Shown in pieces: positions 1 through 60,312 of a stretch of DNA of 64,000 nucleotides. Under the pieces are notes generated by a model, which ran no database searches, had not been told where the DNA came from, and saw nothing but the letters and a program-made list of their open reading frames with translations. The position numbers were made by a program, and so were the translations under genes. Each line of letters opens with the position of its first letter. Within the stretch, counting starts at the first letter, position 1. Location: the NCBI GenBank assembly GCA_964570765.1, contig CAZMZF010000001.1:47626-111625 (forward strand), in the 5' to 3' direction. Origin of the DNA: an uncultured Ignavibacteria bacterium (GTDB taxonomy: Bacteria > Zixibacteria > MSB-5A5 > RBG-16-43-9).

Positions 1-54
1 AAGATAGATAAATAAAATTAAATGACGAATATCGGATATCGAATGATGAATATA

Positions 55-83
55 ACGTCCGGGTTTACCCCGGACGTTTTTTC
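55..83 (+). terminator. Hairpin ACGTCCGGG-TTTA-CCCGGACGT followed by a T6 run; rho-independent terminator-like
   Basis: Perfect 9-bp stem and T-tract read directly from the sequence. It would terminate a gene lying upstream of the window. Confidence 0.4.
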
Positions 84-333
84 TTGTAGGGACAGGACAT
101 TGTCCTGTCCTTTGAATTTTTTTATTCAGGATGAAAGTTTTTGAGATAGAAAATGTAAATTCAGTTACAAATGACAGATAACGGATAAAATATTTATCTT
201 TTAGAAAAGAACCTCACCCTTAATCCCTCTCCTTGAAAAGGAGAGGGAAGTGTAGCGTCCGGTCTCAAGATGCATTGCAGTTTATCCCAGACGTCCTTTT
301 TCTATGTAGCGCGAGGCCATCTCCGCCTCAGTA

Positions 334-515
334 TAGTTTTTCAGTATTTTGGTAACATTTTTTATAGGTTAAGGATATAGGAAAGAGATTATAAATTAGA
401 AGGTAACTTGTTAAAACGGGATTCACATCCAAAAATTTGTTAGTAATTAACGAGATATTGCGTAGGGGTGGAGATTGTTGAGCTTTGCGAAACCCAGATT
501 TTAGGGTCTCCACCC
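334..515. repeat. Copy A of a ~183-bp noncoding element that is duplicated at 52457-52639
   Basis: About 88% identical to the second copy. Ends in the hairpin GTAGGGGTGGAGA...TCTCCACCC. The 61-aa ORF on the minus strand inside it is judged spurious. Confidence 0.6.
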
Positions 516-1090
516 TTAACCCTTATTATAATTTTCATTGTAACTTGAGATCACCTCCTCTATAAACGATTTGTTTTAAAACTATTTTTGCCTGGATTTT
601 CTCCTCCGGTTTTATTAGAGTCTCCATTCATAGTTATTTCTCCCTTTTTTACTCCAGCAAAAATTTGATTAATTTTAGGATTTTTAAACAAAATAAATTT
701 TACTTCAACGAAGATTTCAGGAGAAAGCTTCCTGGTTTAACTCTTTAATATAAGGTTCCAACCTAGTTAGCACCCAATAATTACAATAATAATTAAACTA
801 ATAAAATTTATTTTGTCGTCTTTTTTTAGATTTTTTGGGATTTTAATAGTGCGGGAAGATTATTCTAGCATTAAGTTTTATCACAAAAACGCATGATTGA
901 AAAGCCAACATTGCTAATTCATTCTAAACACTTGCACCATTTTAATCTTTAAGCCAATATAGTCACTCTCCTGAGCTAACTTATAAACTTTTCCTTGACT
1001 TGAAGCTTAAAAGTATTAAATTTTGCGGTGAACTAAAAGGTTAAAGAGTTTAATCCGCCAGAGGCGGAAAGGGTTCAAGGGAAAAAACTT

Positions 1091-1933
1091 ATGCTTAAAC
1101 TTGATGATAAAGAAGTCTATTCTATAGTGGATAATTCCTTTAAGATCGATGGAGGGGCGATGTTTGGAGTGGTTCCTAAAATTATCTGGGAAAGGATGAT
1201 GGTTCCGGATGAGTCAAACAGGATAACTTTAGACTTAAACCTTCTCCTGGTTAAAGCAGAAGGTAAAAACATCCTGGTCGATAGCGGAATTGGTGATACT
1301 CTGAATGAAAAACAGAAGAAGATATATGGTGTGGAAAAAGAGTCTAATCTTGAAAAAGGTCTTTTCGAGATTGGGTTAAAACCTGAGGATATTGATCTGG
1401 TTATTCTTTCTCATCTTCATTTAGACCACGCAGGAGGGATTGTTAAATTTAATTCTCAAGGTGAGAAGGTTCCCCGTTTTCCAAAAGCGAAACATGTGAT
1501 TCAAACCGAAGAATGGAAATATGCGCTTCAACCGGATGAAAGGACTAAAGCAACTTATATGGTGGAGAATTTTCAGGTTCTGGATGAATACGGGTTGATA
1601 GAGTTAGTGAAAGGAGATAGGGAGATTGTGCCGGGGATAAGGGTGAAATTGACTGGAGGACATACAAAAGGACAGCAGGTGGTTTTTATCCAGGGAGGGG
1701 ATAAAACGATTCTTTATCCTGGAGATATAATTCCTACTATTTCTCATCTTAGAATTCCTTATGTGGCAGGTGTTGATATCTATCCCTTAGAGGTTATGGA
1801 GGTCAAAAAGAAATTGATCCAGGACTGTCTGGAATATAACTGGATGATTGCTTTTGATCACGAGATCGAGACAAAGCTCTGTCGTTTAGAAAAAATAAAT
1901 GATAAGATAGAAATTAAAAAAGTTCCAATTTAG
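1091..1933 (+). CDS. MBL-fold metallo-hydrolase (metallo-beta-lactamase superfamily)
   Basis: HLHLDHAGG metal-binding motif and overall MBL-fold pattern. The gene is preceded by a GGTTCAAGG repeat and an A-rich run. Confidence 0.75.
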
Positions 1934-1947
1934 AAAAAAGGTGTTTT

Positions 1948-3498
1948 ATGTCCTTAGAAAAAAAATTAGAGGAGTTAAAAAAGAAAAGAGCAGAGGCGGA
2001 ATTAGGCGGTGGTCCCAAAAGGATAGAGGAACAGCATAAAAAGGGGAAGCTTACGGCCCGGGAGAGGTTGGACCTGCTTTTAGATGATGGTAGTTTTGAG
2101 GAATTCGATATGTTTGTTTTGCACCGCTGTAGAGATTTTGGCCTGGATAAGCAGAAATTTTTCGGTGATGCGGTAGTTACCGGGTACGGAACCATCGAAG
2201 GTAGATTGGTTTTTGTCTTCTCCCAGGATTTCACCACCTTTGGCGGGTCTTTATCCGAAGCCCATTCAGAGAAAATCTGCAAGATTATGGATTTAGCAAT
2301 GAAAATTGGTGCTCCGGTTATAGGTTTGAACGATTCAGGAGGTGCCAGGATTCAAGAAGGGGTGGTTAGTTTAGGTGCTTATGCCAATATATTTTTAAAA
2401 AACACCTTAGCCTCAGGTGTAATTCCGCAGATCTCGGTAATACTGGGTCCCTGCGCCGGAGGTGCTGTCTATTCGCCAGCGATTACTGATTTCACCTTGA
2501 TGGTCAAAGGGACAAGTTATATGTTTGTTACCGGACCTTCAGTAGTCAAAACGGTTACGCATGAAGAGGTAAGTTACGATGAGTTAGGTGGTGCTCTGGT
2601 TCATTCAAGTAAGAGCGGAGTGGCTCATTTCGCCTGTGAAAATGAAGCAGAGACTCTTCTTATAACCCGGAAACTTTTTAGTTTCATCCCTCTGAACAAT
2701 ATAGAAGACCCTCCGGATAAGGAATGCTCTGACCCAGTTGACCGAATGGATGAAGAGTTAAATTTCGTTGTTCCAGAAGAACCGACCAAGCCTTATGATA
2801 TGAAAGATGTGATAAAAAGGGTAGTGGATGATGGCGATTTTCTTGAGGTTCACAAAGACTATGCTCAGAATTTAGTGGTGGGGTTTGCGCGAATGGGTGG
2901 TAAATCTGTAGGGATTGTAGGTAATCAACCAGCGGTCTTAGCCGGGGTTTTAGATATCGATTCGGCAATAAAGGGAGCGAGATTTGTCAGGTTCTGTGAT
3001 GCTTTTAACATACCTTTAGTGGTATTTGAAGATGTACCCGGTTTTCTGCCTGGGACCGCTCAGGAGTTTGGTGGAATAATAAAGCATGGGGCAAAACTTC
3101 TCTATGCTTTCTGTGAGGCAACTGTTCCCAGATTAACTGTGATCACACGCAAAGCTTATGGAGGAGCTTATGATGTTATGAATTCCAAACACATAAGAGG
3201 GGATATAAACTACGGCTGGCCCACTGCAGAGATAGCAGTTATGGGTCCAAAAGGTGCAGTGGAGATTATCTTTAAAAAAGAGATAGCGGAATCTCCTGAT
3301 CCTGAAAAGGCAACTGAGGAGAAGTTAAAAGAATTCATTGAAAAGTTCGCTAACCCTTATATCGCCGCAGAAAGGGGTTATTTGGATGATGTGATTGAGC
3401 CCAAAGAGACCAGACCAAGATTAATCAAGGCTTTGTCGATGCTGGAGACTAAAAAAGATTTCAATCCGCCGAAAAAGCATGGGAATATACCATTGTAA
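1948..3498 (+). CDS. Acyl-CoA carboxylase carboxyltransferase subunit (propionyl-CoA carboxylase beta / methylmalonyl-CoA carboxyltransferase 12S-like)
   Basis: 516 aa. Typical carboxyltransferase N-terminus ([22 protein letters not shown]) and the paired CT domains. Confidence 0.85.
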
Positions 3499-3583
3499 AA
3501 AGGTTCAAGGGTTCAATGGTTCAAAAGCTCAAGGGAAAATAATGACAAATTATAGATGACAGATATAAAATAAAAGAATCATA

Positions 3584-3742
3584 GGCGGAGCACCTTGCTC
3601 CGCAAAAACGTAGATCGTAGAGTCCGACCTTTGTGTCGGACAATGAAAGGTTTATCGTAGCGCCCGTAGGGCAATGCGACCCTGTCCTACGGTGGCTACG
3701 CCAGACGTAGTCTCCGTTATTAGGAAAAGGGTCGCGCTACGA
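3584..3742. repeat. Cluster of REP-like palindromes (GGCGGAGC hairpin, GTCCGAC hairpin, GTAGCGC...GCGCTAC family)
   Basis: Nested palindromes. The last 65 bp (3678-3742) recur at 7725-7789 with one mismatch. Confidence 0.6.
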
Positions 3743-3753
3743 CAAAATATATT

Positions 3754-5280
3754 ATGTTCAAAAAAATTCTTATAGCTAATCGGGGAGAGATCGCAGTCAG
3801 GATTATACGAGCTTGCAGAGAGTTAGGGATAAAAGCGGTCGCGGTCTTTTCTGAAATAGACCGAAAAGGTTTACATGTTCGGATGGCAGATGAAGCTTAT
3901 TTTATCGGACCCTCACCTTCAGTTGCCAGTTACCTTAATATGGAAAAGTTAATTGAGGTGACAAAAAAAGCAGGGTGCGAGGGGATTCATCCGGGTTATG
4001 GCTTTTTAGCAGAAAATCCAGTGTTCGCCCGATTAGTTGAAAAAGAGGGATTGGTTTTCATCGGTCCGCCTGCCTCTGCCATTGAGCTTTTAGGGGATAA
4101 AATGGCGGCCAGAAAAACGATGAAAAAAGCCGGGATCGAAGTTGTTCCCGGAACTGAGGAACCTTTAGAGTCTGAAAAGCAGGGGCTTTCTATTGCTCAA
4201 AAAATAGGTTTCCCAATTTTAATTAAAGCGGCTGGTGGTGGAGGGGGAAAAGGGATGAGGATTGTCAGAAATGAAAAAGATTTAAAAGAGGCCATGAGGG
4301 CTTGTTCCTCTGAAGCTAAATCTGCCTTTGCGGATGCCAGGATCTATATTGAAAAATATTTAGAGAAACCCAGACATATTGAGATTCAGATCTTAGGTGA
4401 TAAATTCGGAAATATTATTTATTTAGGGGAGAGGGAGTGCTCTATTCAGAGAAGACATCAGAAGGTGATTGAGGAATCTCCTTCACCGATTGTAGATGAG
4501 GTTATGCGAAAGAAAATGGGTGAGACGGCGGTTAAAGCAGCTAAAGCGGCTGGATATCGCAATGCAGGAACAATGGAATTTTTGGTTGATTCTGATAAAA
4601 ACTTCTATTTCTTAGAGGCTAATACTCGACTTCAGGTAGAACATCCGGTTACGGAGATGGTTACCGGGATCGATATAGCCAAGGAGCAGATGAAGATTGC
4701 CTCAGGTTTGCCTTTAAGCTACAAGCAGGCGGATGTTACCTGGAAGGGAGCATCTATAGAATGTCGGATTTATGCTGAGGACCCGGAAAACAATTTTCTG
4801 CCTTCAACCGGTACGGTTTCATATTATGAAGAGCCAGCAGGTCCAGGGATCAGGGTTGATTCCGGTCTTTATGAAGGATGTGATGTCCCGATCTACTATG
4901 ATCCAATCATAGGAAAATTAATCACCTGGGGTAAAGATAGAGAGGAAGCTATTCAGAGAATGAGAAGAGCTTTAGCGGAATATCATATTTCCGGTGTAGC
5001 TACCACCATACCTTTTCACATTCAGGTGATGGAGAATGAAAAATTCAAGCAAGGAGAATTGTCTACTCATTTTATTGAAGAGGAGTTTAATCAAGGCAGA
5101 AAAGCTCAACTTGAAGAAAATAGTTATAGAATGGTGGCTTTGTTTTCGGCTTTAGCTGAATATAAAAATATACAAAAGGTTCAAAGGTTCAATCCGCCAG
5201 GGCGGACAAAGACTCAAGAGAAGGAAAATCCGTGGAAGATGGAAGGGAGAAGAAGAGGATTAAGAAAATTTGGGATTTAA
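3754..5280 (+). CDS. Biotin carboxylase subunit (ATP-grasp), partner of the upstream carboxyltransferase
   Basis: N-terminus MFKKILIANRGEIAVRIIRAC, glycine-rich ATP-grasp loop GGGGGKGMR and the downstream biotin-carboxylase domain pattern. The 3' end runs through a GGTTCAAAGG/CCGCC repeat, which may extend the C-terminus. Confidence 0.9.
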   Translation: MFKKILIANRGEIAVRIIRACRELGIKAVAVFSEIDRKGLHVRMADEAYFIGPSPSVASYLNMEKLIEVTKKAGCEGIHPGYGFLAENPVFARLVEKEGLVFIGPPASAIELLGDKMAARKTMKKAGIEVVPGTEEPLESEKQGLSIAQKIGFPILIKAAGGGGGKGMRIVRNEKDLKEAMRACSSEAKSAFADARIYIEKYLEKPRHIEIQILGDKFGNIIYLGERECSIQRRHQKVIEESPSPIVDEVMRKKMGETAVKAAKAAGYRNAGTMEFLVDSDKNFYFLEANTRLQVEHPVTEMVTGIDIAKEQMKIASGLPLSYKQADVTWKGASIECRIYAEDPENNFLPSTGTVSYYEEPAGPGIRVDSGLYEGCDVPIYYDPIIGKLITWGKDREEAIQRMRRALAEYHISGVATTIPFHIQVMENEKFKQGELSTHFIEEEFNQGRKAQLEENSYRMVALFSALAEYKNIQKVQRFNPPGRTKTQEKENPWKMEGRRRGLRKFGI

Positions 5281-5306
5281 GTATAAAGTAATACTTTAAA
5301 GCATAT

Positions 5307-5813
5307 ATGAAATACATTGCTAATATTGAAGATAAGAGTTTTGAAGTTGATATAATTGAGACTGATGGTAAACTGATAATAAAGCTTGATGGTCAACCTG
5401 TTGCGGTTGATTTTGTGCAAGTTAAACCACCTAATCTTTTTTCATTTCTGGTGGATAATCAATCGTTTGATGTGGAGATAGTAAAAAATGCTGAGGGGTA
5501 CTGGGTAAATTTTAATGGAAGAAGATATGAATGTATTTTAGAGGATGAGAAAATTCAAAAGATAAAAGATATTGTCGGGTTTAAAAAAGAGATTTTGCAT
5601 GATAGAGAACTTAAATCTCCAATGCCTGGTTTAGTCGTTGCCATTGAGGTTGAGGAGGGGGAGATGGTGAAAGTGGGGCAGGGTGTTGCCATAGTTGAGG
5701 CGATGAAGATGGAAAATGAGTTGAAAGCTAAATTTGATGGGAAAGTGAAAAAAGTCAGGGTGAAACCGGGACAGGCAGTGGAAAAGAACGAGATTCTGGT
5801 AATATTTGAATGA
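5307..5813 (+). CDS. Biotin carboxyl carrier protein (biotinyl domain)
   Basis: C-terminal EAMKM biotinylation motif (VEAMKMENEL). Confidence 0.8.
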   Translation: MKYIANIEDKSFEVDIIETDGKLIIKLDGQPVAVDFVQVKPPNLFSFLVDNQSFDVEIVKNAEGYWVNFNGRRYECILEDEKIQKIKDIVGFKKEILHDRELKSPMPGLVVAIEVEEGEMVKVGQGVAIVEAMKMENELKAKFDGKVKKVRVKPGQAVEKNEILVIFE

Positions 5814-6048
5814 GAAAAAACGTTTTTCGTGACCGTTGTTCGTGAGCGTTGAAAAAATGTAGAGAGGTTCAATAGTTCAAAGGTTTAATAGTTCAAGGGC
5901 AAAAAAGATATAGAATTCATTGCGGGGAAACCAGGCCGGAATGACGAAATTCGTAGGACGTTCGCCCGACACGATGGTCGGGCGTTAAGAGTTTCAGCTA
6001 CTTGCTACATGCTACCTGCTAAGAGCTATTAATAGATGAGAGAGGTAA

Positions 6049-7647
6049 ATGATGGATGATAAACGCAAATTTTTCACCACCTCAAATATTCCCATAAACG
6101 AGCTTTATACTACAGAAGACCTTTCTGATTTCGATTACACCAGTAACTTAAGCTATCCGGGGAAATATCCTTTCACCCGTGGGGTGCAGAAGGATATGTA
6201 TCGGGGACGCTTGTGGACGATGAGGCAGTATGCTGGCTTTGGGACTGCTCTGGAGACTAATAAACGGTTCAAATATTTATTACAGAAGGGACAGACCGGT
6301 TTATCAATTGCCTTCGATCTTCCTACCCAAATCGGTTATGATTCTGACCATCCCTTATCCTCAGGTGAAGTGGGCAAAACCGGAGTAGCGATCGATACGC
6401 TTAAGGATATGGAAATACTTTTTGATGGAATTCCATTGGATAAAGTTAGCACCTCAATGACTATAAATGCTACAGCTTCAATCCTTTTAGCGATGTACGT
6501 GGCTTTAGCTAAAAAGCAAAATGTCCCCCTAAATCTACTCTCCGGCACGATTCAAAATGATATTCTAAAAGAATATATTGCCAGAGGAACATACATCTTT
6601 CCCCCTCGCCCTTCGATGAGACTTACTACTGACATTTTTAAATACTCCAGTGAAAATCTTCCAAAATTTAATCCAATAAGTGTTAGCGGTTATCATATCA
6701 GGGAGGCTGGGGCAACTGCGGTGCAGGAGATTGCTTTTACATTAGCTAACGGCATAACCTATGTGCAGGAAGCGATAAATTCCGGGCTGAAAGTGAATGA
6801 TTTCGCTAAACGGGTTTCATTTTTCTTGAATTCTCACAGTAATTTCTTTGAGGAGATAGCCAAGTTCAGAGCAGCCAGGAGGCTCTGGGCGAAAATTATA
6901 AAAGAGAGATTCAGGGCAGAAGAAGATGTATGTAAATTAAGATTTCACACTCAGACTGCAGGATGTACCCTTACTGCCCAACAGCCTGAAAATAATATAA
7001 TTAGAGTAGCCCTGCAGGCACTTTCCTCAATCCTGGGAGGGACTCAATCGTTACATACCAATTCAATGGATGAGGCATTAAGTCTTCCCTCACAAAAGTC
7101 AGCTGAAATAGCTTTAAGAACACAACAGATTATTGCCTATGAGAGCGGGGTTACTGATACGGTTGACCCCTTAGCTGGAGCTTATTTTATTGAAGCTTTG
7201 ACCAATAGAATAGAGGATGAGGCGAGAAAATATATAGATTATATCGTAAAGAATGGTGGTGCATTATGGGCGGTCGAATCTGGATATTATCAGAAAGAGA
7301 TTCAGAAAAGCGCTTATGAATATCAAAAGATGATAGAATCAAAAGAGAAAATTATTGTAGGGGTGAACAAATTTGAGGCTGAAGTTGAAAAAGAGAAAAG
7401 AAAAAAGATTTTTAAGGTAAGTAAAAAGGGAACATTGGATCAGATTAAAAGATTAAAAGAAGTAAAAGAAAAAAGAGATAAAGAAAAAGTGAAAAAGTCA
7501 CTGGATGAATTGAGAAATAAAATTAATACGGATGAGAATTTAATGTATCCGATAATTCATTGCGTAGAAGCTTATACCTCAATTGGTGAGATCTGCGAGG
7601 TCTTAAAAAGTGTCTGTGGAGAGTATGAACAGAAAGTAATAATTTAA
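6049..7647 (+). CDS. Methylmalonyl-CoA mutase, catalytic (N-terminal) subunit without a B12-binding domain
   Basis: 532 aa with the mutase TIM-barrel pattern (RMYAGFGT..., SIAFDLPTQ...). Lys-rich C-terminal linker and no cobalamin-binding DxHxxG domain. Confidence 0.8.
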   Translation: MMDDKRKFFTTSNIPINELYTTEDLSDFDYTSNLSYPGKYPFTRGVQKDMYRGRLWTMRQYAGFGTALETNKRFKYLLQKGQTGLSIAFDLPTQIGYDSDHPLSSGEVGKTGVAIDTLKDMEILFDGIPLDKVSTSMTINATASILLAMYVALAKKQNVPLNLLSGTIQNDILKEYIARGTYIFPPRPSMRLTTDIFKYSSENLPKFNPISVSGYHIREAGATAVQEIAFTLANGITYVQEAINSGLKVNDFAKRVSFFLNSHSNFFEEIAKFRAARRLWAKIIKERFRAEEDVCKLRFHTQTAGCTLTAQQPENNIIRVALQALSSILGGTQSLHTNSMDEALSLPSQKSAEIALRTQQIIAYESGVTDTVDPLAGAYFIEALTNRIEDEARKYIDYIVKNGGALWAVESGYYQKEIQKSAYEYQKMIESKEKIIVGVNKFEAEVEKEKRKKIFKVSKKGTLDQIKRLKEVKEKRDKEKVKKSLDELRNKINTDENLMYPIIHCVEAYTSIGEICEVLKSVCGEYEQKVII

Positions 7648-7678
7648 AATACGTGTGAAGGATTCGATGATTGGAGAT

Positions 7679-7789
7679 TGTAGCGCGAGGCCTCAAGGTC
7701 TTGAGACTTTCAGCCTCGCAATGTGACCCTGTCCTGCGGTGGCTACGCCAGACGTAGTCTCCGTTATTAGGAAAAGGGTCGCGCTACGA
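7679..7789. repeat. REP-like palindrome cluster (GTAGCGCGAGGC...GCCTCGC, then GACCCTGTCC...GGGTCGCGCTAC)
   Basis: Palindromes read from the sequence. The terminal 65 bp repeat 3678-3742. Confidence 0.6.
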
Positions 7790-7802
7790 AAGGTCGAAAA
7801 TT

Positions 7803-8201
7803 ATGAAAATAGAAAAAATTGAACATATCGGGATTGCAGTGAAAAGCATTGATGAAGTGGCGAAATTCTACAGCAACATTCTTAATCTAAAAATCTCTGA
7901 AAAAATTGTGGTGCCTCAAAGAAAGATTAGAATTGCCTTTGTCCAGCTCTCTGAAACAAAGTTGGAGCTATTAGAGTCGATGGAGGAAGGGAGTGTTATT
8001 GATAAATTCATTCAGAAAAAGGGGGAAGGGATTCATCATATTTGCTTTGAGGTGGAGGATTTTGATAAGGTTGTAGCTGAGCTAAAGGATAAAAAAGTAG
8101 AATTGGTGGGCGAACCCCGGACAGGTGCAGAAGGAAAGAGAATCGTTTTCCTCCAGCCTAAAAATGCGTTTGGGGTGTTGATTGAGTTAAAGGAAAAATA
8201 G
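7803..8201 (+). CDS. Methylmalonyl-CoA epimerase (VOC/glyoxalase family)
   Basis: 132 aa. N-terminus IEHIGIAVKSIDE is typical of epimerases, and the gene sits in the methylmalonyl-CoA cluster. Confidence 0.75.
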   Translation: MKIEKIEHIGIAVKSIDEVAKFYSNILNLKISEKIVVPQRKIRIAFVQLSETKLELLESMEEGSVIDKFIQKKGEGIHHICFEVEDFDKVVAELKDKKVELVGEPRTGAEGKRIVFLQPKNAFGVLIELKEK

Positions 8202-8326
8202 CACAGCTGATTGGAATGATTAAGCAAATTAAAAAATACGGATGACAGAGTTTTTCGTAGCGCCCGTAGGGCAATGCGACCCTAAAAGGTCGCGCTACGA
8301 AACTGCAACTTGATTAAGAGAATTAA

Positions 8327-9325
8327 GTGATAGATATTTTTGGTTATCAAATTGAACGTGATTTATTTTTGACAATTCTAGGTATTATTGTTGCGGGTAT
8401 AATTAGCTTTTTTACTTGGATTCGTCCTCGTCGGGCAAAACTGAAAAAACAAGACGAAGAGCGTCTTTGGCGTATTGAAAAACAAGCAAAAGAAACAAAT
8501 GAAAACATAAAGCTAATACAAAGGCATTTTGACATTCCGATTTATGTAGATGAGTTACCTTCTGCACGTCCATCAGTATTTGTCCCATTTCTTAAAGGGT
8601 TAAAACTTATGATGCAGCTTAAATGGGATGAAGCAATACTTGAATTTAAGCAGGCGTTGAAAGATGCAAAAACCAGTCAATTAGTTGCCCTTTATAATTT
8701 TATAGGACTCTGTTACATTGTGTATGACAAACTCGATTTGGCTTTAGAAAGTTTTAATAATTCTTTAACTTTTGCTAGTGAGCTTGACAGCAAAGAGGGT
8801 GAAGCGGTCGCTCTTAGCATGCTTGCCATAACTTTTCGAAATAAAGGTGAATTGGACAAGTCCTTAGAATATTACCAAAATGCTTTAGTTGTATGTAGAG
8901 AAATTAACGACAAAAAATTGGAAGCAGCAATAATTTTCAGCCTTGGTCTAATCTATCAGATGAAAGGAGTTCTGGATAAAGCAGAGAAAAGCTATGAGGA
9001 AGCTCTGAAGATTTTTAGAGTAATTGGTGAAAAAGAAGGGGAAGCTAAATCGCTTGGAAACCTCGGTTTAATTTATCAGGCCAATGGTCTTTTAAATGAA
9101 GCCTTCAGATCTTTTCTATCTGCTCTTAAGATCAATAAAAAACTTGGCAGAAAGAAAGGTATAGCAGTCCAGATTAACAATATAGGTACAGTCTTTGAAG
9201 CTAAAAGAGAAAAGGAAAAAGCTCTGAGATATTTTGAAGATGCTTTGAGAATATTTACTGAAATTGGAGAGCAGAAGGGAATTGAACAAACTAAAGAAAA
9301 TATTAAAAGATTAAAAGGTGAATGA
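8327..9325 (+). CDS. TPR-repeat protein with an N-terminal transmembrane helix
   Basis: Multiple 34-aa TPR-like repeats (AxxxYxxALxI...). Hydrophobic N-terminus. Confidence 0.65.
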   Translation: MIDIFGYQIERDLFLTILGIIVAGIISFFTWIRPRRAKLKKQDEERLWRIEKQAKETNENIKLIQRHFDIPIYVDELPSARPSVFVPFLKGLKLMMQLKWDEAILEFKQALKDAKTSQLVALYNFIGLCYIVYDKLDLALESFNNSLTFASELDSKEGEAVALSMLAITFRNKGELDKSLEYYQNALVVCREINDKKLEAAIIFSLGLIYQMKGVLDKAEKSYEEALKIFRVIGEKEGEAKSLGNLGLIYQANGLLNEAFRSFLSALKINKKLGRKKGIAVQINNIGTVFEAKREKEKALRYFEDALRIFTEIGEQKGIEQTKENIKRLKGE

Positions 9326-9339
9326 GGTTCAAGTACTCC

Positions 9340-9390
9340 GTAGCGCGAGGCTTTTAGCCTCGCAATGCGACCCTGAAAGGGTCGCGCTAC
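9340..9390. repeat. REP element: GTAGCGCGAGGC-TTTTA-GCCTCGC-AATG-CGACCC-TGAAA-GGGTCGCGCTAC
   Basis: Double-hairpin palindrome with GTAG/CTAC termini, located 22 bp upstream of the RAYT gene. Confidence 0.75.
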
Positions 9391-9412
9391 GATTATAAGA
9401 AATGTAAATTAA

Positions 9413-9892
9413 ATGAAATATAGTTTTCAAAAGAGGATAAGATTAAAGGACTTTTCTTATAAAGGTTTGTGGAGATACTTCGTAACAATTTCGACGTACG
9501 AAGGTAAACGATATTTCGAAAATAATAAGTCTGTAGAGAGTTGTATTATTTATCTTAAAGATATATCGGTTTCATATAACTTCAACGTATTAGCGTATTG
9601 TTTTATGCCTGATCATTTGCATCTTTTGATTGAAGGAAAAGAGGAAGATTCTGATTTTAGGAAGTTTATGTCTATGTTTAAACAGAAGTCAAATTATCAT
9701 TGTAAAAACATCGAAGGAAATCCTCTTTGGCAAAAGGATTATTATGAACATGTTTTAAGAAGAAATGAGGATACTATACAGGTAATAAAGTATATATTAG
9801 ATAATCCGGTAAGAAAAGGGATGGTTAAGGATTTTAGAGATTATCCCTTTCTCGGTTCTTTTGTTTATGATTTAAAAGAGGTATTTTCGTAG
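9413..9892 (+). CDS. REP-associated tyrosine transposase (RAYT, IS200-like HUH Y1)
   Basis: HuH motif MPDHLHLLI and downstream catalytic Tyr region LWQKDYYEHVLR...NPVRKGMV. Same-family REPs flank the gene on both sides. Confidence 0.85.
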   Translation: MKYSFQKRIRLKDFSYKGLWRYFVTISTYEGKRYFENNKSVESCIIYLKDISVSYNFNVLAYCFMPDHLHLLIEGKEEDSDFRKFMSMFKQKSNYHCKNIEGNPLWQKDYYEHVLRRNEDTIQVIKYILDNPVRKGMVKDFRDYPFLGSFVYDLKEVFS

Positions 9893-9938
9893 CGCGAGGC
9901 TTCAGCCTCGCAATGCGATCCTAAAAGGATCGTCCTAC
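9889..9938. repeat. REP element of the same family. Its GTAG supplies the RAYT TAG stop codon
   Basis: GTAGCGCGAGGCTTCAGCCTCGCAATGCGATCCTAAAAGGATCGTCCTAC. Confidence 0.75.
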
Positions 9939-9978
9939 GAAAAGCAATACGAAAGACAAAAATATACAGGAGAACAAG

Positions 9979-11052
9979 ATGGGTCTTTTTGAGATGATGG
10001 AGGAGAAAGGGCATGAGCAGTTGATATTTTGCTACAATCAGCCCACGCATTTAAAAGCCATAATCGCTATCCACGATACTACCCTGGGAAAAGCAGTTGG
10101 AGGATGCAGGCTCTGGAAATATAATACAGAGAAAGAGGCGATTACGGATGCTTTGATTTTGTCTGAAATTATGACTTATCAATCTGCTATCTCGGATTGC
10201 GATACCGGCGGGGGCAAAGTAGTTTTGTGGCATGATTTTGAAGAAGAGCCGGATGAGGCTTATTACCGGGCTTTAGGGAGGTTTATCGAGGGGCTAAAGG
10301 GAAGGATCATTACCTATCCGGATTTAGGCACTGATACTCAGGAGATGAAGTACATTCGAAGAGAGACCGAGCATGTCCTTTTTTATGAGACCTCCTCAGG
10401 TTTGAGAGCGGAAAGCTCAGAGCTTACCGCTTATGGAGTTTACTGGGGGATGAAAGCCTGTGTTAAAGAGCTTTATGGTATATCCTCTTTAGATGGGCTT
10501 ACTGTGGCAATTCAAGGAGTAGGGAGTGTAGGTCGAATACTGGCTGATTATCTCAAGGAAGAAAAAGTAAAGCTTATCGTTACTGATTTGAACTATGATT
10601 CCATCAAAAAAGTTCAGGATAAATATCCGGATACAATTATTGCCAACCCTGAAAATATTTTAACCTGTGAATGCGATGTCTTTTCTCCCTGTGCTTTAGG
10701 TCCAGTATTCAGCAGGCAGAATATAGATAAGCTCCGATGTAAAATCATTGCTGGAGGAGCTTATAATATTTTAGAAGAGGCTTCATTGGCTGAGGAACTA
10801 TTTAAACGAGGGATTTTGTATGCTCCGGACTTTGTGATAAACAGTGGTGAGCTTTTTATGACTGCGGATGCTTTAAAGATATTATCCAAAGATGAAGCTT
10901 TAGCCTCAGCTAAAAAGATCTATGATATAATGGCAAAAGTACTGGCTATATCCAGAAGAGGGAATATCTCCCCTTATAAAGCTGCTTACCAGTTGGCAAA
11001 AGAAAGGATAATAAAAGTAGGGGATATAAAAAATATTTTATGTTGTATCTAA
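9979..11052 (+). CDS. Leucine/valine dehydrogenase (Glu/Leu/Phe/Val dehydrogenase family)
   Basis: 357 aa. IAIHDTTLG...GGCR motif and Rossmann GVGSVG motif. Confidence 0.85.
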   Translation: MGLFEMMEEKGHEQLIFCYNQPTHLKAIIAIHDTTLGKAVGGCRLWKYNTEKEAITDALILSEIMTYQSAISDCDTGGGKVVLWHDFEEEPDEAYYRALGRFIEGLKGRIITYPDLGTDTQEMKYIRRETEHVLFYETSSGLRAESSELTAYGVYWGMKACVKELYGISSLDGLTVAIQGVGSVGRILADYLKEEKVKLIVTDLNYDSIKKVQDKYPDTIIANPENILTCECDVFSPCALGPVFSRQNIDKLRCKIIAGGAYNILEEASLAEELFKRGILYAPDFVINSGELFMTADALKILSKDEALASAKKIYDIMAKVLAISRRGNISPYKAAYQLAKERIIKVGDIKNILCCI

Positions 11053-11158
11053 AAAACAGTTCAAAGGTTTAAAGGTTTAAAAGTTTAAAGGTAAAAAAGA
11101 AAATTAAACTGTTTACAATAAGAGTTCTTATCAAGGAAACAAAAGGATAGAAAAAAGT

Positions 11159-12250
11159 ATGAATAAGAAGAATAGTTTTAGAATTCTGGTAATCAACCCA
11201 GGTTCGACCTCTACCAAGGTCTCAATCTTTGAAGATGAAAAGGAGCTTTTTGGAAAAGCAATCTCCCATAGCAAATTAGAACTGGAGCCGTTTAAAAGAG
11301 TCTGGGATCAATATGAGTTCAGAAAGAAGCTGATTAAAGACTTATTGGAAGAGTATGAGATTAAGCCAGAAACTCTTTCGGCAGTAGTAGGTAGAGGTGG
11401 ACTTTTCAGGCCAGTGGTTGGTGGAACTTATCTGGTAAATGAACTGATGATCGAGGATGGTAGAAATGCTTTTGGAGGAGAACATGCGGCTAATTTAGGT
11501 GCAGTTTTAGCTTTTGGATTAGGCTGGGATTATCATATACCAGCCTTCATAGTGGATCCACCCTCTGTGGATGAATTCGAAGAATACTCCCGCTATTCAG
11601 GTTTACCGGAGTTTCCCAGGAAAAGTCTTTTTCATGCACTAAACGTAAAAGCCACAGCCCGATTAGCCGCAAACGATTTGAAGAAAAAGTTAGAGGAGAT
11701 AAATCTGATTGTGGCTCATTTAGGAGGTGGAGTTACCGTAGCGGCTCTGGAAAAGGGAAGAGCAATTGATGTTAATAATGGCTTGCACAGTGGTCCGTTT
11801 ACACCGGAAAGGTCTGGAACTTTGCCGATGTTTGATTTTGCGGAATGGTGTTTTTCCGGAAAAGTGACTTTAGAACAGGTGAAAAAAAGGATGGTGGGTG
11901 GTGGTGGTCTGGTGGCTTATTTAGGGACGAATGATGCTAAAGAGGTGGAAAAAAGAATAAAACAAGGGGATAAAAAGGCTGAAGCTGTCTATAATGCAAT
12001 GATCTATCAGATCGCCTGTGAAATCGGTGCCAGAGCTGTAGCCCTTAAGGGTAAGGTGGATGCTATCGTTTTAACCGGAGGATTAGCTTACTCGGATATG
12101 GTAGTTGAGAAGTTGAGAGAGTATGTGGGCTTTATTGCCAGGATATTAGTTTATCCAGGACAGGATGAGATGAAAGCTTTAGCTTTAGGGGCTCTCAGAG
12201 TATTAAGAGGGGAGGAGGAGGCAAAGACTTATCCGGAGATGGTCAAATAA
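11159..12250 (+). CDS. buk: Butyrate (branched-chain fatty acid) kinase
   Basis: RILVINPGSTSTK N-terminus and the acetate/butyrate-kinase fold pattern. Confidence 0.9.
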   Translation: MNKKNSFRILVINPGSTSTKVSIFEDEKELFGKAISHSKLELEPFKRVWDQYEFRKKLIKDLLEEYEIKPETLSAVVGRGGLFRPVVGGTYLVNELMIEDGRNAFGGEHAANLGAVLAFGLGWDYHIPAFIVDPPSVDEFEEYSRYSGLPEFPRKSLFHALNVKATARLAANDLKKKLEEINLIVAHLGGGVTVAALEKGRAIDVNNGLHSGPFTPERSGTLPMFDFAEWCFSGKVTLEQVKKRMVGGGGLVAYLGTNDAKEVEKRIKQGDKKAEAVYNAMIYQIACEIGARAVALKGKVDAIVLTGGLAYSDMVVEKLREYVGFIARILVYPGQDEMKALALGALRVLRGEEEAKTYPEMVK

Positions 12251-12377
12251 AAAACGTTCAAAAGCTTAAAAGTTCAAATGTTCAAAGGTAAAATATAAGT
12301 GATGTTGGAGTGCTTAGGTTGGTTCGGGAATTGTCGTTAAGATTTTCTAGGGTGAGAATTCCTGAACCAGAAACGTA

Positions 12378-12410
12378 ACGTCCGACAATCCTGTCGGACG
12401 TTATTATTTT
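12378..12410 (+). terminator. Hairpin AACGTCCGACA-ATCC-TGTCGGACGTT followed by a T-rich run
   Basis: Seen in the sequence. Lies about 125 nt downstream of the buk stop. Confidence 0.35.
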
Positions 12411-12551
12411 TGTAGCGGATCCGCCTTTGGCGGATAGGTTTCCATCTTCCTTTAACAAGAGAATGGAAGGCTGAAGTCTCAAGACTTTGACGGCCTTCCG
12501 CTACACAAATCGGACTTGTCTGCTCATTACACTCATACAAGAATGTCTGAG

Positions 12552-13352
12552 CTACTTCAGAGGTTTTGCGTCTTCAGGAATCTTGAGCTGAAATTTCTTT
12601 TCCGAGATAGATGAATTTATCTGAATTTCCAAAAATTTAAGCCTGAGCTTCTCTTTTCCCTCTAATGATTTTATCTCTATTGTCTGAGGGAGTTTTATCC
12701 CATTGAATTTCCTAAAATCTTTATATTCTATCATAAATCCCTGGGCTTTTTCTTGTTCTACTTCAAATGAATTCAATCTCTCCCAGATGCTTTTTCTTAA
12801 AAGTGCCTCTTTTTTATCCAGACAGAATTTTCTTTTCCACATTTGAATGCTATCTTCATAGATGTAGTTTTTCTGGTCAGCTCCGGTATAATAAGCCCTA
12901 TCTTCCTTTATCTGGATTTCAACTGCAAGAATTTTTAAAAGACAGAAAAGGCTGATCTCATTCTCGTAAATAGAATCATAAGAGCAGTTTTGAGTGATAC
13001 CTTTATAATATTTTTTTAGACGGGGGAAATAAAAAAGTAAGGTATCGCTATAGACTACTCCAGATATGTAATCGGGACCTAAAAAAGCTTTTACTCTGAA
13101 GGCAAGACTATCTGGCTTTTTTAAAAATAGTTCTAAGTCTCCGGAGAAACTTCCCTGTTTAGATTTGTAGTTGAAGTTTATAAGCGAAGAAGAGGTTTTG
13201 GTCTGGCTTTGATTTGAGATCGCTTTTTCCAGGACTTTTTGCGGAGTAAGCTCCTCTGGAGGAGGTTTCAGGCGAGCCGCTGGATAACAGCTGAAAAAAA
13301 AGAGAATTAAATAAAAAAGTAAAAGAAGGCTTATCAACTTCATAAATGTCAT
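12552..13352 (-). CDS. Hypothetical secreted protein or lipoprotein
   Basis: The longer ORF in the track (to 13568) extends across a REP. The start is placed at MTFMKLISLLLLF (signal peptide, possible lipobox FSC). Confidence 0.45.
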   Translation of the reverse strand: MTFMKLISLLLLFYLILFFFSCYPAARLKPPPEELTPQKVLEKAISNQSQTKTSSSLINFNYKSKQGSFSGDLELFLKKPDSLAFRVKAFLGPDYISGVVYSDTLLFYFPRLKKYYKGITQNCSYDSIYENEISLFCLLKILAVEIQIKEDRAYYTGADQKNYIYEDSIQMWKRKFCLDKKEALLRKSIWERLNSFEVEQEKAQGFMIEYKDFRKFNGIKLPQTIEIKSLEGKEKLRLKFLEIQINSSISEKKFQLKIPEDAKPLK

Positions 13353-28981: not shown

Positions 28982-29505
28982 CGAGTAAACCTCCTGTTCT
29001 TGTGATTTATATCAAAAAAAGCAAAAATTCTTCTGTTTTATATATAATCTTTTTTAAATCAAGATTCAAGGATTTTCTTTCATACTTTGAGATTTTTTTC
29101 ACAAGGTATTTTATAGGGACCACCCTTGTTGAACTTTGTGAAATCCCCGCCAAAGGCGGGGGTGGTTGTCCGTATTTCGTAGTGCGACCCTTTTAGGGTC
29201 GCCTGGGAACTATCTATTGCGGAGACGCATGCAATGCGTCTCTACGTTTCTTTTAGCTTCTGCGGAGCAAGTCCGCCTCTGGCGGAAGCTTACGATTCTA
29301 CATTTGTCATTTCCTACGGATCCGTTTCTCGGACTGAGCAAGTCCGCCTTTGGCGAGACGATCGAAGAATCTCTTAAACTTGACAAGAGAATAGATTCTT
29401 CGTCCGCCTTTGGCGAGACTCAGAATGACAGTTCATTGTGTCCCTTGAGCCTTTGAACCCCTCAACCACATAAGCGAGGCTAAAGCCTCGCACTACGAAA
29501 AAAAT
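28982..29505. repeat. 524-bp intergenic region made almost entirely of REP palindromes inside a long minus-strand catabolic gene string
   Basis: Palindrome families CCGCCAAAGGCGG, GTAGTGCGACCC...GGGTCGC, GAGACGCATGCAATGCGTCTC, TCCGCCTCTGGCGGA, ...CTCAGAATGAC and GCGAGGCTAAAGCCTCGCACTAC. Confidence 0.6.
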
Positions 29506-32314: not shown

Positions 32315-32407
32315 TTTTTAAGTCCTTTAAAGAACGATCCTTCGTTGCCACAGGAGTCGTAACGCTACGATTTTTTCCCCTTTGAACCTTTGAACTTTTA
32401 AACTGTT

Positions 32408-52277: not shown

Positions 52278-52456
52278 AAAAAGTTCAAGGGTTTAAGAGT
52301 TTAAAGGTTCAAAGGGAAAAAAGAAGTGGAATTGATTCGGGTTTCGTGAACGTAAATATAACCTTACCCTAACCCTATCATTAGGAAGGAGAGGGGATGA
52401 ATTATGTACAGTAGAGGTTCAAAATTTTGAACCCTTACTTTTTTCCAAATTCAGTT

Positions 52457-55025: not shown

Positions 55026-55225
55026 AGAACGTTTAATCCGCCAAAGGCGGACAAAAGTTCAAAGGCTCAAAGGAAGAAAAAATAATAATGGATGAAGAAT
55101 GACGAATGACGGAAAAAATATTGTAGGGGCAACCCCCTGCGGTTGCCCATTATGGGAGCAGGCGCTGGAGCCTGCCCCTACATAAAATATAAAATGTCAA
55201 CACTTATGAATTCAGAGGTCAATAG

Positions 55226-59888: not shown

Positions 59889-60312
59889 AATTGGTGTAGG
59901 AATTCCCCAGAATGGGTCTTGGCGACATTTCCCGCACGAACAGTAAATCTCTTTTTCCGTCAGGTCAGGGTACCTGACGGGCACTTGGAATTCCTTTAAT
60001 AGGTCGTATATTATAATAAATCAATGGTAGGGGTTAAAAATTTTGAACCCTTTCAAGGTTTATCAACTCGCTCTAGACCTCACCCTGCCCTTGTATTTTA
60101 AATTGGAAGGATTTATAATTATACGGACCGGGATGAAACTGTCCTTACCCAAAGGTATTAAAGCCTGAAGGAGAGATTAGTTCGCCCGGTCCGTTAATCC
60201 GCCAGAGGCGGACCTGATACCGGACGGTATCTTAGGCGATCAGATTTGACCAGCCTGTATTCACAAGGTCGGTACAAGGCGTCCAGGGGTAAAGGTAAAA
60301 CAGGAGGTTACA

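What the first reader, a model, noticed from the sequence alone, without database searches (positions are those of the whole stretch)
3499..3545. Tandem 9-bp GGTTCAAAG arrays placed immediately after stop codons of many genes
Each array has 3-4 tandem copies of the 9-10-bp unit (A)GGTTCAA(A/G)G, usually ending in AAGGGAAAAAAG.

+ strand copies directly after stop codons:
- 3499-3545, after the carboxyltransferase gene.
- 5865-5900, after the BCCP gene.
- 9326-9340, after the TPR gene.
- 11053-11100, after the leucine dehydrogenase gene.
- 12251-12290, after buk.
- 52278-52320, after the HD-GYP gene.
- 55026-55085, after the lipoprotein gene.

Reverse complements after minus-strand gene ends:
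- 29440-29465
- 32375-32405

Variants embed a CCGCCAGAGGCGG hairpin at 1036-1090, 5165-5200 and 55030-55060. Palindromic versions (GGTTCAAAATTTTGAACC) occur at 52417-52434 and 60033-60055. The strict positional association with gene 3' ends and the fixed order suggest a modular 3' UTR or termination-associated element or a protein-binding array, not random simple sequence. The order is the 9-mer array, then an A-run, then GAATGACGAAT-type repeats, then a REP.
Basis: seen in the sequence. Interest (0 to 1): 0.6.

Follow-up and report, generated by a model that had tools for sequence, protein, structure and literature searches.

The report
Octamer tandem repeats after stop codons
A Zixibacteria genome carries short tandem arrays of an 8-base unit (GGTTCAAA-like), always on the coding strand and usually starting 3-8 bases after a stop codon; they look like fast-changing intergenic repeat DNA rather than terminators, and whether they have a function is still open.

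Summary
The arrays are real and non-random, with 5 strict arrays against 0.06 expected. The period is 8 (RGTTYAAR), not 9-10.

In the window, 10 loci carry 1-5 units flanked by A-runs, all on the sense strand of the local gene. Five of eight intergenic arrays start within 8 nt of the stop (P about 1e-5). One lies in frame inside a biotin-carboxylase linker, and one lies in a 5' UTR.

The source is a genus-level Zixibacteria clade. Syntenic relatives (85-97% aa identity) gain, lose and resize the arrays at orthologous sites (0, 1 or 4-5 copies). Where present, the arrays sit after stops on the sense strand.

They are not terminators, match no Rfam family, and are not predicted to be unusually unstructured. 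They form the first module of a mosaic: octamers, an A-run, ATGACA-type heptamers, then a GTAG hairpin next to a RAYT gene. A 15-nt CCGCC hairpin is variably nested in the arrays.

Other 7-nt repeat classes in the clade also pile up after stops. Similar arrays occur in Bacteroidota and other phyla, without orientation bias. Permuted-unit controls are equally common in viral contigs.

Best reading: STRR/BIME-like, VNTR-like intergenic repeat DNA that is transcribed into 3' UTRs. A specific protein-binding role is not excluded.

The parts
1036..1090 (+). Degenerate octamer array split by the hairpin TCCGCCAGAGGCGGA (1054-1068). It ends in GGGAAAAAACTT directly before the ATG at 1091, so it is a 5' UTR copy.
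   Evidence: It lies downstream of a promoter-like site TTGACT-N16-TAAATT at 995-1022. The ortholog in L120 has the array without the hairpin.
3499..3541 (+). A-run plus 4 units (GGTTCAAG GGTTCAAT GGTTCAAA AGCTCAAG) plus GGGAAAAT. It starts 3 nt after the TAA of the carboxyltransferase gene.
   Evidence: The orthologous site in L367 reads TAA AAAGG|CAATGACAG with 0 units.
3542..3605 (+). Heptamer module AATGACAAATTATAGATGACAGATATAAAATAAAAGAATC followed by the hairpin GGCGGAGCACCTTGCTCCGC. This is the second and third module of the mosaic.
   Evidence: One search shows the same module at 6 or more non-orthologous sites in relatives. One search reports a promoter-like site, ATGACA-N18-TAAAAT, matching 10 of 12 positions.
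5175..5205 (+). Two units plus the hairpin TCCGCCAGGGCGGA, in frame inside the C-terminal linker of biotin carboxylase (ORF 3754-5280).
   Evidence: L120 and L127 have 4 units here without the hairpin. L367 has the hairpin. A relative at about 70% identity has an ordinary K-rich linker.
5864..5905 (+). Four units (GGTTCAAT AGTTCAAA GGTTTAAT AGTTCAAG) plus GGGCAAAAAAG, 52 nt after the BCCP stop and behind a CGTGAMC-type repeat.
   Evidence: L120 and L367 have an array directly after this stop.
9326..9333 (+). Single unit GGTTCAAG directly after the TGA of the TPR gene, followed by a REP-like GTAG hairpin.
11053..11100 (+). A-run plus 4-5 units plus GGTAAAAAAG, directly after the TAA of leucine dehydrogenase.
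   Evidence: Copy number at this site is 4 in L127, 1 in L122 (97% relative), and 0 in L120, L126 and L367.
12251..12292 (+). A-run plus 4 looser units after the TAA of buk, at a convergent gene end. A true terminator-like hairpin lies 120 nt further on, at 12375-12404.
   Evidence: L120 has 1 unit here and L367 has 4.
29440..29466 (-). Two units (GGTTCAAA GGCTCAAG) on the minus strand, 46 nt after the stop of the second BCCP gene and behind a REP.
32375..32407 (-). Three units plus GGGGAAAAAA on the minus strand, 3 nt after the TAA of the enoyl-CoA hydratase gene (32408-33196).
   Evidence: L207 has an array with the hairpin at this site, while L206, L209 and L208 have none.
52278..52322 (+). 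A-run plus 4 units plus GGGAAAAAAG, 4 nt after the TAA of the HD-GYP gene.
55026..55085 (+). One unit, the hairpin TCCGCCAAAGGCGGA (55037-55051), 2 units, then AAGGAAGAAAAAA, directly after the TAA of ORF 54546-55025. ATGACGA heptamers and a GTAG hairpin follow.
52416..52433 (+). Perfect 18-nt palindrome GGTTCAAAATTTTGAACC with a T-rich tail. It is terminator-like. It shares the unit sequence but is not an array.
60033..60055 (+). Imperfect palindrome GGGGTTAAAAATTTTGAACCC in the non-coding stretch upstream of an IS110-family transposase pseudogene. Its relation to the arrays is uncertain.

Best explanation
**What it is.** The arrays are a lineage-specific family of octanucleotide short tandem repeats. 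The unit is R-G-T-T-Y-A-A-R, in 1-5 copies, bracketed by A-runs. It is one of several 7-8-nt repeat classes in this clade. Together with GTAG...CTAC REP-like hairpins (a RAYT/Y1 transposase gene is present), a 15-nt CCGCC hairpin and MITE-like elements, these classes build mosaic intergenic regions in a genus-level clade of Candidatus Zixiibacteriota.

**What is shown.**
- The arrays behave as VNTR-like repeat DNA. They appear, disappear and change copy number between close relatives.
- They are part of a dispersed composite module.
- They can even sit in frame in a coding linker.
- They lie on the sense strand 3-8 nt after stop codons, so they are transcribed as the first bases of the 3' UTR or intercistronic RNA.

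**What is inferred.**
- They spread and resize by DNA-level processes: module dispersal or gene conversion, plus unequal recombination between units.
- They are retained where they do no harm. In the sense orientation they are purine-rich, C-poor and hairpin-free, and they end in A-runs rather than T-runs, so they neither terminate transcription nor occlude the next ribosome-binding site.
- They are not terminators, and probably not gene-specific regulators.
For: - **Non-random tandem structure with period 8**.
- **Source lineage.** LeuDH homologs are named Zixibacteria.
- **Turnover at orthologous sites.**
  - LeuDH-buk: 4-5 units in the window, 4 in L127, 1 in L122 (97% aa identity), 0 in L120, L126 and L367.
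  - buk end: 4 units in the window and L367, 1 in L120.
  - CT-BC: 4 units in the window, 0 in L367 at the same AAAGG|CAATGACA junction.
  - OB gene end: 4 units in L206/L209, 0 in the window.
  - ECH end: present in the window and L207, absent in L206, L208 and L209.
- **Orientation.** 20 of 21 arrays in 170 kb of clade DNA are co-oriented with the upstream gene.
- **Stop adjacency.** P = 1.3e-5.
- **In-frame copy** in the biotin-carboxylase linker of 4 genomes, replacing an ordinary K-rich linker seen in a ~70% relative.
- **Composite module** octamers-AAAAGG-CAATGACA..GATGACAGATATAA..-GTAGGCGGAGCACC.. at 6 or more non-orthologous sites.
- **RAYT genes** in the window and in relatives.
- **Polymorphic nested hairpin**.
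- **Post-stop habitat is general.** Of all period 6-9 repeats in co-directional intergenic regions of the clade, 15 of 30 start within 10 nt of the stop and 63% lie in the first fifth of the region. In unrelated controls 23% lie in the first fifth. Most of these repeats are purine-rich on the sense strand.
- **Not a terminator**, **no Rfam match**, and **not unusually unpaired** when folded.
- **Motif not special.** Permuted-unit octamer arrays are as frequent as the real motif in viral contigs: 45 stretches against 16, 41 and 60.
Against: - T4, A6 and A7 are invariant and G2 is 97% conserved across 64 units. Variation is confined to R1, Y5 and R8, and the 8-nt register is constant. That fits a recognition site better than neutral filler. 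The units were selected with a pattern allowing 1 mismatch, which biases this count.
- Adjacent units are no more alike than units from different arrays (6.29 against 6.10 of 8). Simple recent slippage therefore does not explain how the arrays arise.
- The orthologous LeuDH arrays of the window and L127 keep 4 units. They differ only at degenerate positions 5 and 8, while the rest of the intergenic region cannot be aligned.
- Starting 3-8 nt from the stop is tighter than tolerance alone predicts.
- No mobilising mechanism was demonstrated.
- 8 of the 10 window arrays lie in branched-chain amino acid or propionate catabolic clusters. This could hint at regulation, but it is weak evidence.
Confidence: 0.5

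Rival explanations
1. RNA-level cis element. The sense-strand array in the mRNA, directly after the stop codon, is a multivalent single-stranded platform for an oligomeric RNA-binding protein (in the manner of TRAP with spaced GAG/UAG triplets, or HutP with UAG-N4 repeats), or for the post-termination ribosome or ribonucleases. It would tune the expression, processing or stability of neighbouring cistrons.
For: - Strict sense orientation in the clade: 20 of 21 arrays.
- Arrays start 3-8 nt after stops.
- A copy also sits in a 5' UTR downstream of a conserved promoter, in both the window and L120.
- Constant 8-nt spacing with invariant G2, T4, A6 and A7 and degenerate R/Y positions.
- The orthologous window and L127 arrays differ only at degenerate positions.
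- 8 of 10 window arrays lie in amino-acid or propionate catabolic clusters.
- Sense arrays in other phyla also lie near stops: median 13 nt to the stop against 94 nt to the next start, n = 28.
Against: - The same gene end has 0, 1 or 4-5 units in relatives of 86-97% identity. This is hard to reconcile with a needed regulator site.
- The arrays are not predicted to be more single-stranded than shuffles.
- One copy is translated, inside a coding linker.
- Other Zixibacteria carry the array antisense in an operon (L041, L088).
- Bacteroidota loci show no orientation bias: 67 co-oriented against 75 opposite.
- The SD-like AAAGG part is not the conserved part of the unit. R1 is A in 36% of units.
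- No candidate protein was found.
Confidence: 0.22
2. DNA-level protein-binding array. The 8-bp tandem units are operator-like sites for a cooperative DNA binder. Known examples are ribbon-helix-helix proteins on 8-bp metboxes (MetJ), 8-bp ACTC-N4 boxes (ParG) or 7-bp heptads (omega). The binder could also be a nucleoid protein marking gene ends.
For: - Head-to-tail units in a fixed 8-bp register, with a conserved core and 2-5 copies.
- Co-resident 7-bp arrays.
- Palindromic and inverted versions exist, in the window at 52416-52433 and as inverted array pairs in Chitinophagaceae loci.
Against: - A duplex-DNA binder does not explain the strict link to the transcribed strand in this clade.
- The arrays sit after stop codons, not at promoters. 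The exception is 1036-1090.
- The arrays are unstable between relatives.
- No cognate gene was identified.
- The comparison with MetJ, ParG and omega is from memory and was not tested here.
Confidence: 0.1
3. Termination-associated element. The arrays cause or assist transcription termination at gene 3' ends.
For: - The arrays sit at gene 3' ends.
- One related palindrome, 52416-52433, scores as terminator-like.
- In some Bacteroidota loci, inverted array pairs between convergent genes could fold into long hairpins.
Against: - The arrays themselves have no inverted repeat and are followed by A-runs, not T-runs.
- The scan places no terminator at any array.
- Most arrays lie between co-directional genes of one pathway cluster, in some cases with only 66-150 nt to the next start.
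- G-rich, C-poor sequence makes a poor Rho loading site. This last point is general knowledge and was not tested.
Confidence: 0.04

Closest known systems
STRR (short tandemly repeated repetitive) heptamers of heterocystous cyanobacteria, and the small dispersed repeats nested in them (Mazel 1990 and Elhai 2008, recalled from memory; the papers were not retrievable)
   Same: - Dispersed intergenic arrays of a few head-to-tail copies of a 7-8-nt unit.
- Many classes occur in one genome.
- Small hairpin-type elements are nested inside the arrays.
- No established function.
   Different: - The unit is 8 nt, not 7.
- The host is Zixibacteria, not cyanobacteria.
- Here a sense-strand position 3-8 nt after the stop is documented. 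Whether STRRs share it was not checked.
BIMEs / REP mosaics of enterobacteria, with their RAYT transposases
   Same: - An extragenic mosaic of short motifs in a fixed order.
- It lies between co-transcribed genes or at operon ends.
- GTAG-hairpin REPs are present and a Y1/RAYT gene is nearby.
- Rapid turnover between relatives.
   Different: - The octamer arrays are direct repeats, not palindromes.
- No evidence ties RAYT to their movement.
- BIME accessory motifs are not tandem octamers.
VNTR / simple-sequence contingency repeats
   Same: - Head-to-tail units.
- Copy number differs at orthologous sites between close relatives.
- An 8-nt unit inside a coding linker could shift the reading frame.
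   Different: - Units within an array are heterogeneous.
- The arrays lie after stops rather than in promoters or at 5' coding ends.
- No phase-variable gene class is involved.
Tandem short operator or RNA-site arrays (MetJ metboxes, ParG and omega sites; TRAP and HutP RNA sites)
   Same: - A short conserved core repeated 2-5 times or more at fixed spacing.
- In the clade the arrays are strand-specific, as the RNA sites are.
   Different: - No cognate protein is known.
- The arrays are not at promoters, or at leaders with alternative structures.
- They are not conserved between close relatives.

Membership tests
Intrinsic (Rho-independent) terminator | G+C-rich hairpin immediately followed by a U-run on the transcribed strand | tested here: not met
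   The arrays have no inverted repeat and end in A-runs. The scans place no terminator at any array.
Cyanobacterial STRR | Tandem heptanucleotide unit | tested here: not met
   TRF gives period 8 for these arrays. Separate 7-nt classes co-occur in the same intergenic regions.
Cyanobacterial STRR | Dispersed, intergenic, few copies per array, many loci per genome | tested here: met
   There are 10 loci in 64 kb, and all but one are intergenic.
Cyanobacterial STRR | Host is a heterocystous cyanobacterium | tested here: not met
   The closest proteins are named Zixibacteria.
REP / BIME | Imperfect palindrome of about 20-40 nt with a conserved GTAG-type head | tested here: not met
   The octamer arrays are direct repeats. 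GTAG...CTAC hairpins are separate neighbours.
REP / BIME | Mosaic of motifs in fixed order in extragenic DNA, with a RAYT gene in the genome | tested here: met
   The order octamers, A-run, heptamers, GTAG hairpin is seen at 8 of 8 sites that have all the parts. Y1_Tnp genes are present.
VNTR / SSR | Head-to-tail units with copy-number differences at orthologous loci | tested here: met
   Copy numbers of 0, 1 and 4-5 occur at the LeuDH, buk and CT gene ends.
VNTR / SSR | Arrays generated by recent slippage, so that neighbouring units are near-identical | tested here: not met
   Identity between adjacent units is 6.29 of 8, against 6.10 of 8 between units of different arrays.
CRISPR array | Repeats of 24 nt or more separated by unique spacers | tested here: not met
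   The units are contiguous 8-mers.
DNA uptake sequences (DUS/USS) | Genome-wide over-representation of the single word, including in coding DNA | tested here: not met
   GGTTCAAAG with up to 1 mismatch gives 29 matches against 21.5 expected.
RHH-type operator arrays (MetJ, ParG, omega) | Tandem 7-8-bp boxes with a conserved core | tested here: met
   The unit logo shows G2, T4, A6 and A7 at 97-100% in an 8-bp register (the selection of units biases this).
RHH-type operator arrays (MetJ, ParG, omega) | A cognate binding protein, and overlap with a regulated promoter or centromere | not testable with these tools
   No candidate gene was found. The arrays lie after stops, not at promoters.
TRAP / HutP-type RNA sites | Sense-strand repeats at fixed spacing in a leader, overlapping an RBS or an antiterminator | tested here: inconclusive
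   Sense strand and fixed spacing are met. Only 1036-1090 lies in a leader. No alternative structures were seen.
Any Rfam family | A covariance-model match | tested here: not met
   There are no matches at gathering score across the window. Nothing relevant appears at E up to 1 in 900-12600.

The most novel reading that the evidence does not exclude
The (RGTTYAAR)n array is a previously undescribed cis element that is read in an 8-nt register on the mRNA right after the termination codon. The element is shared by Zixibacteria and several other phyla (Bacteroidota, Ignavibacteria and others), where sense-oriented copies also abut stop codons. Copy number would then set the strength of a post-termination effect on neighbouring cistrons, such as coupling, processing or stability.
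Probability: 0.12. Interest if true: 0.75.

Novelty: new variant of a known kind. Interest (0 to 1): 0.4.

Why it matters
Short tandem intergenic repeats such as the cyanobacterial STRRs have had no accepted function for decades.

This work documents a clean case in an uncultivated phylum. The placement rule is unusually sharp: sense strand, 3-8 nt after the stop. The units have a position-specific conservation pattern, and presence/absence and copy-number alleles are documented between close relatives.

That makes two questions testable:
- Are such arrays junk that is merely filtered by transcription and translation constraints?
- Or are they multivalent sites for a protein or for the ribosome?

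There are also practical consequences. These arrays break assemblies, since many hits lie at contig ends. They can sit in frame in genes. They also mark a mosaic module that may carry an outward promoter.

Tried and rejected
- **Terminator.** Rejected, because there is no hairpin or T-run at the arrays.
- **Known RNA family.** None matched.
- **Unstructured-spacer idea.** Unpaired probability in the arrays is 0.31-0.63, about the same as shuffled arrays and flanks. There is no support for it.
- **SD-mimic idea.** The AAAGG part falls on the variable positions, with R1 = A in 36% of units. Unlikely.
- **G-quadruplex.** GG runs are not conserved. This was judged by eye from the units.
- **DNA uptake sequence.** The single word is not enriched.
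- **Conserved cross-phylum motif.** The genome scan gave more than 118 hits, mostly in Bacteroidota. However, permuted-unit controls are as frequent in viral contigs, and the Bacteroidota loci show no orientation bias. Homology across phyla is therefore not claimed. In addition, start-codon calls next to antisense arrays are prone to artefact, because the reverse complement of the array carries TGA/TAA and TTG.
- **tRNA T-loop resemblance (GTTCRA).** Noted but not pursued. The arrays have no stem, and the GTTTAA variants lack C56.
- **Literature.** No paper contains these array sequences. STRR and Zixibacteria searches gave nothing relevant. One search failed on syntax, and Elhai 2008 is not held.

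Full report

All listed sites contain GGTTCAAA-like units. Tandem Repeats Finder reports period 8, not 9-10, at 3502-3535, 5865-5896, 11059-11092, 12252-12286, 32379-32403 and 52279-52315. A strict scan (at least 3 units, at most 2 mismatches each) finds 5 arrays, against a mean of 0.06 in Markov shuffles. The single word is not enriched, with 29 matches against 21.5 expected, so the signal is the tandem arrangement.

Three corrections follow:
- 5165-5200 lies inside the biotin-carboxylase ORF 3754-5280.
- 1036-1090 abuts the ATG at 1091.
- 9326 is a single unit.

**2. Anatomy**

- The unit is R1-G2-T3-T4-Y5-A6-A7-R8. Across 64 units from the clade, T4, A6 and A7 are invariant, G2 is 97% conserved and T3 is 84% conserved. 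Positions 1, 5 and 8 vary, mainly by transitions. The units were picked with a pattern allowing 1 mismatch, which biases this.
- Arrays are preceded by 3-5 A's after the stop and end in AARGG(G/T)AAAAA.
- Adjacent units are no more alike than units from different arrays: 6.29 against 6.10 of 8. The arrays are therefore not fresh slippage products.
- In the window, 5 of 8 intergenic arrays start within 8 nt of the stop. With uniform placement in each array's own intergenic region, P = 1.3e-5.
- All arrays lie on the sense strand of the local genes. This includes the two in the minus-strand block.

**3. What it is not**

- No terminator-like hairpin with a T-run adjoins any array. Most arrays lie between co-directional genes of the same catabolic clusters.
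- No Rfam family matches, even at permissive thresholds.
- Folded as RNA, the arrays are about as unpaired as shuffled arrays and flanks.

**4. Source and relatives**

LeuDH homologs place the window in Candidatus Zixiibacteriota. Syntenic contigs at 85-97% aa identity were recovered from NCBI, JGI, ENA and Logan. Because the arrays appear in these independent assemblies, they are not an assembly artefact.

Orthologous intergenic regions show rapid turnover:

| Gene end | Copy number by genome |
|---|---|
| LeuDH to buk | 4-5 in the window, 4 in L127, 1 in L122 (97%), 0 in L120, L126 and L367 |
| buk end | 4 in the window and L367, 1 in L120 |
| CT to BC | 4 in the window, 0 in L367 at the same AAAGG\|CAATGACA junction |
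| OB gene end | 4 in L206/L209, 0 in the window |
| ECH end | present in the window and L207 (there with a hairpin), absent in L206, L208 and L209 |

Other points from the relatives:
- Across 170 kb of clade DNA, 20 of 21 arrays are co-oriented with the upstream gene. Intergenic arrays of 3 or more units start 3-8 nt after the stop, with one exception.
- Relatives at about 70% identity lack the octamers. They carry (AAATTCA)n heptamers after stops instead.
- The orthologous LeuDH arrays of the window and L127 keep 4 units and differ only at positions 5 and 8. This is a hint of constraint, but it rests on a single pair.

**5. Coding and 5' UTR copies**

The biotin-carboxylase C-terminal linker holds the array in frame in the window, L120, L127 and L367, followed by a conserved ENPWKMEGRR tail. 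A relative at about 70% identity has an ordinary K-rich linker of similar length.

Upstream of the MBL-fold gene, a conserved TTGACT-N16/17-TAAATT promoter-like site is followed by a degenerate array. This holds in both the window and L120.

**6. Mosaic context**

- Intergenic regions of this clade are packed with 7-nt arrays, GTAG...CTAC hairpins and MITE-like elements. RAYT (Y1_Tnp) genes are also present.
- The octamers are the first module of a composite that recurs at 6 or more non-orthologous sites. The composite reads octamers-AAAAGG-CAATGACAnATTnAAGATGACAGATATAAnATAAAAnAATC-GTAGGCGGAGCACCCTGCTCCGC.
- The 15-nt hairpin TCCGCCNNNGGCGGA occurs 6 times in the window, against 0.08 expected. 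It follows GTTYAA when it lies inside an array.
- That hairpin is present or absent at orthologous arrays. At BCCP-MCM it is in L367 but not in L120. In the BC linker it is in the window and L367 but not in L120 or L127. It therefore behaves as a nested insertion.
- Of all period 6-9 repeats in co-directional intergenic regions of the clade, 15 of 30 start within 10 nt of the stop and 63% lie in the first fifth of the region. In unrelated controls 23% lie in the first fifth.
- Most of these repeats are purine-rich on the sense strand, as is the clade's RNA in general: 56-61% purine.

**7. Beyond the clade**

Most were Bacteroidota, with some Zixibacteria, Ignavibacteria, Desulfobacterota, Planctomycetes and archaea.
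- In these loci 163 of 174 arrays are intergenic, but orientation is unbiased: 67 co-oriented against 75 opposite.
- Sense copies in co-directional intergenic regions are nevertheless stop-proximal, with a median of 13 nt to the stop against 94 nt to the next start.
- Other Zixibacteria (L041, L088) carry an orthologous antisense array just upstream of a genuine start codon.
- Chitinophagaceae loci show inverted array pairs between convergent genes.
- Unrelated control DNA (828 kb) held one array of 3 or more units.
- Permuted-unit controls are as frequent as the real motif in viral contigs: 45 against 16, 41 and 60. I therefore do not claim that the motif is special or homologous across phyla.

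**8. Interpretation**

The best-supported reading (about 0.5) is VNTR-like, STRR/BIME-like intergenic repeat DNA. It spreads and resizes at the DNA level. It is tolerated directly after stops in the sense orientation, where it is purine-rich, C-poor, hairpin-free and flanked by A-runs.

What is shown:
- non-randomness
- the placement rule
- turnover between relatives
- the mosaic module
- the coding copy

What is inferred:
- the mode of spread
- selective tolerance

The main rival (about 0.22) is a multivalent RNA site read after termination. The invariant positions, the fixed register and strand specificity favour it. Turnover between relatives and the antisense or unbiased copies elsewhere count against it. 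A duplex-DNA protein array (about 0.1) and a terminator role (about 0.04) are less likely.

**9. Novelty**

No paper in the library contains these arrays. The closest described phenomena are cyanobacterial STRRs with nested small dispersed repeats and enterobacterial BIME mosaics; both are cited from memory. I rate this a new variant of a known kind, of moderate interest.

Noticed in passing
window 5997-6021, 17631-17663, 21517-21545, 21600-21687, 44982-45014, 54370-54403, 55092-55111, 56289-56308: There are many separate 7-nt tandem repeat classes in intergenic regions: GCTACNT, TAGGTCA, GTTAGAC, CTTCCNT, GAATGAC, ATGGAAA and AATGATT. Purine-rich classes sit after stops, while some others (ACCTATG, CGTCTAA) sit just before the next start.
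   Followed up: partly
window 3542-3571; also L206 about 12890-12925, L207 about 8690-8725, L122 about 2180-2215, L367 about 1090-1125 and about 3370-3405: The heptamer module contains a conserved sigma-70-like arrangement, ATGACA-N16-TATAAA/G. It is the best promoter-like hit in 1-13000 and is followed by a GTAGG hairpin. It may be a dispersed outward-promoter cassette.
   Followed up: partly
window 1054-1068, 12420-12434, 19811-19825, 29272-29286, 55037-55051, 60198-60212 (plus 5192-5205): This is a 15-nt hairpin family, TCCGCCNNNGGCGGA, with 6 copies against 0.08 expected. Inside octamer arrays it follows GTTYAA, and it is present or absent at orthologous sites in relatives. That resembles a tiny nested mobile element.
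   Followed up: partly
window 9413-9892 with flanks 9340-9412 and 9893-9945; 3671-3742 and 7718-7789: A RAYT-type Y1 transposase gene is flanked by GCGAGGC..GCCTCGC / GCGACCC..GGGTCGC REP pairs. A 72-nt REP-containing repeat occurs twice at 97% identity.
   Followed up: partly
window about 33208-33283, 35163-35232, 44880-44978, 50437-50533, 57200-57306, 63418-63518: These are MITE-like elements with TGTCATTCTGAGG / TGTCATTGCGAGG...CTCGCAATGACA inverted ends around a CCGCC-type hairpin. They were read and not analysed further.
   Followed up: no
window 359-500 and 52481-52622: A 142-nt non-coding repeat is present twice at 87% identity. The second copy lies just downstream of the palindrome 52416-52433. 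It could be an sRNA gene or a MITE.
   Followed up: no
window 60313-61042 (and the non-coding stretch 59889-60312): An IS110-family transposase pseudogene is split over three frames, with DEDD_Tnp_IS110 and Transposase_20 fragments. The upstream non-coding stretch carries the GGGGTTAAAAATTTTGAACCC palindrome and a TCCGCCAGAGGCGGA hairpin.
   Followed up: partly
window 5105-5280; L120 6380-6506; L127 1120-1260; L367 2600-2756: The biotin carboxylase has a C-terminal tail (ENPWKMEGRRRGLRK) behind an in-frame octamer array. Gaining or losing one 8-nt unit would shift the frame of that tail.
   Followed up: partly
L026 3446-3553, L006 7581-7689, L080 4827-4905 (Chitinophagaceae): Octamer arrays occur as inverted pairs between convergent genes. 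Each arm is on the sense strand of the gene next to it and close to that gene's stop. Together they could fold into a long hairpin.
   Followed up: partly
L206 10796-10868; L209 about 8463-8592: In a relative, a REP begins directly after a TAG stop (sequence ...TAG CGCGAGGC...). The stop codon may be supplied by the REP's GTAG head.
   Followed up: no
window 48785-49664; 50982-51158 and 54030-54203: ORF 47929-50400 holds a 135-nt periodic coding repeat. Two other ORFs contain dockerin-type repeat pairs.
   Followed up: no
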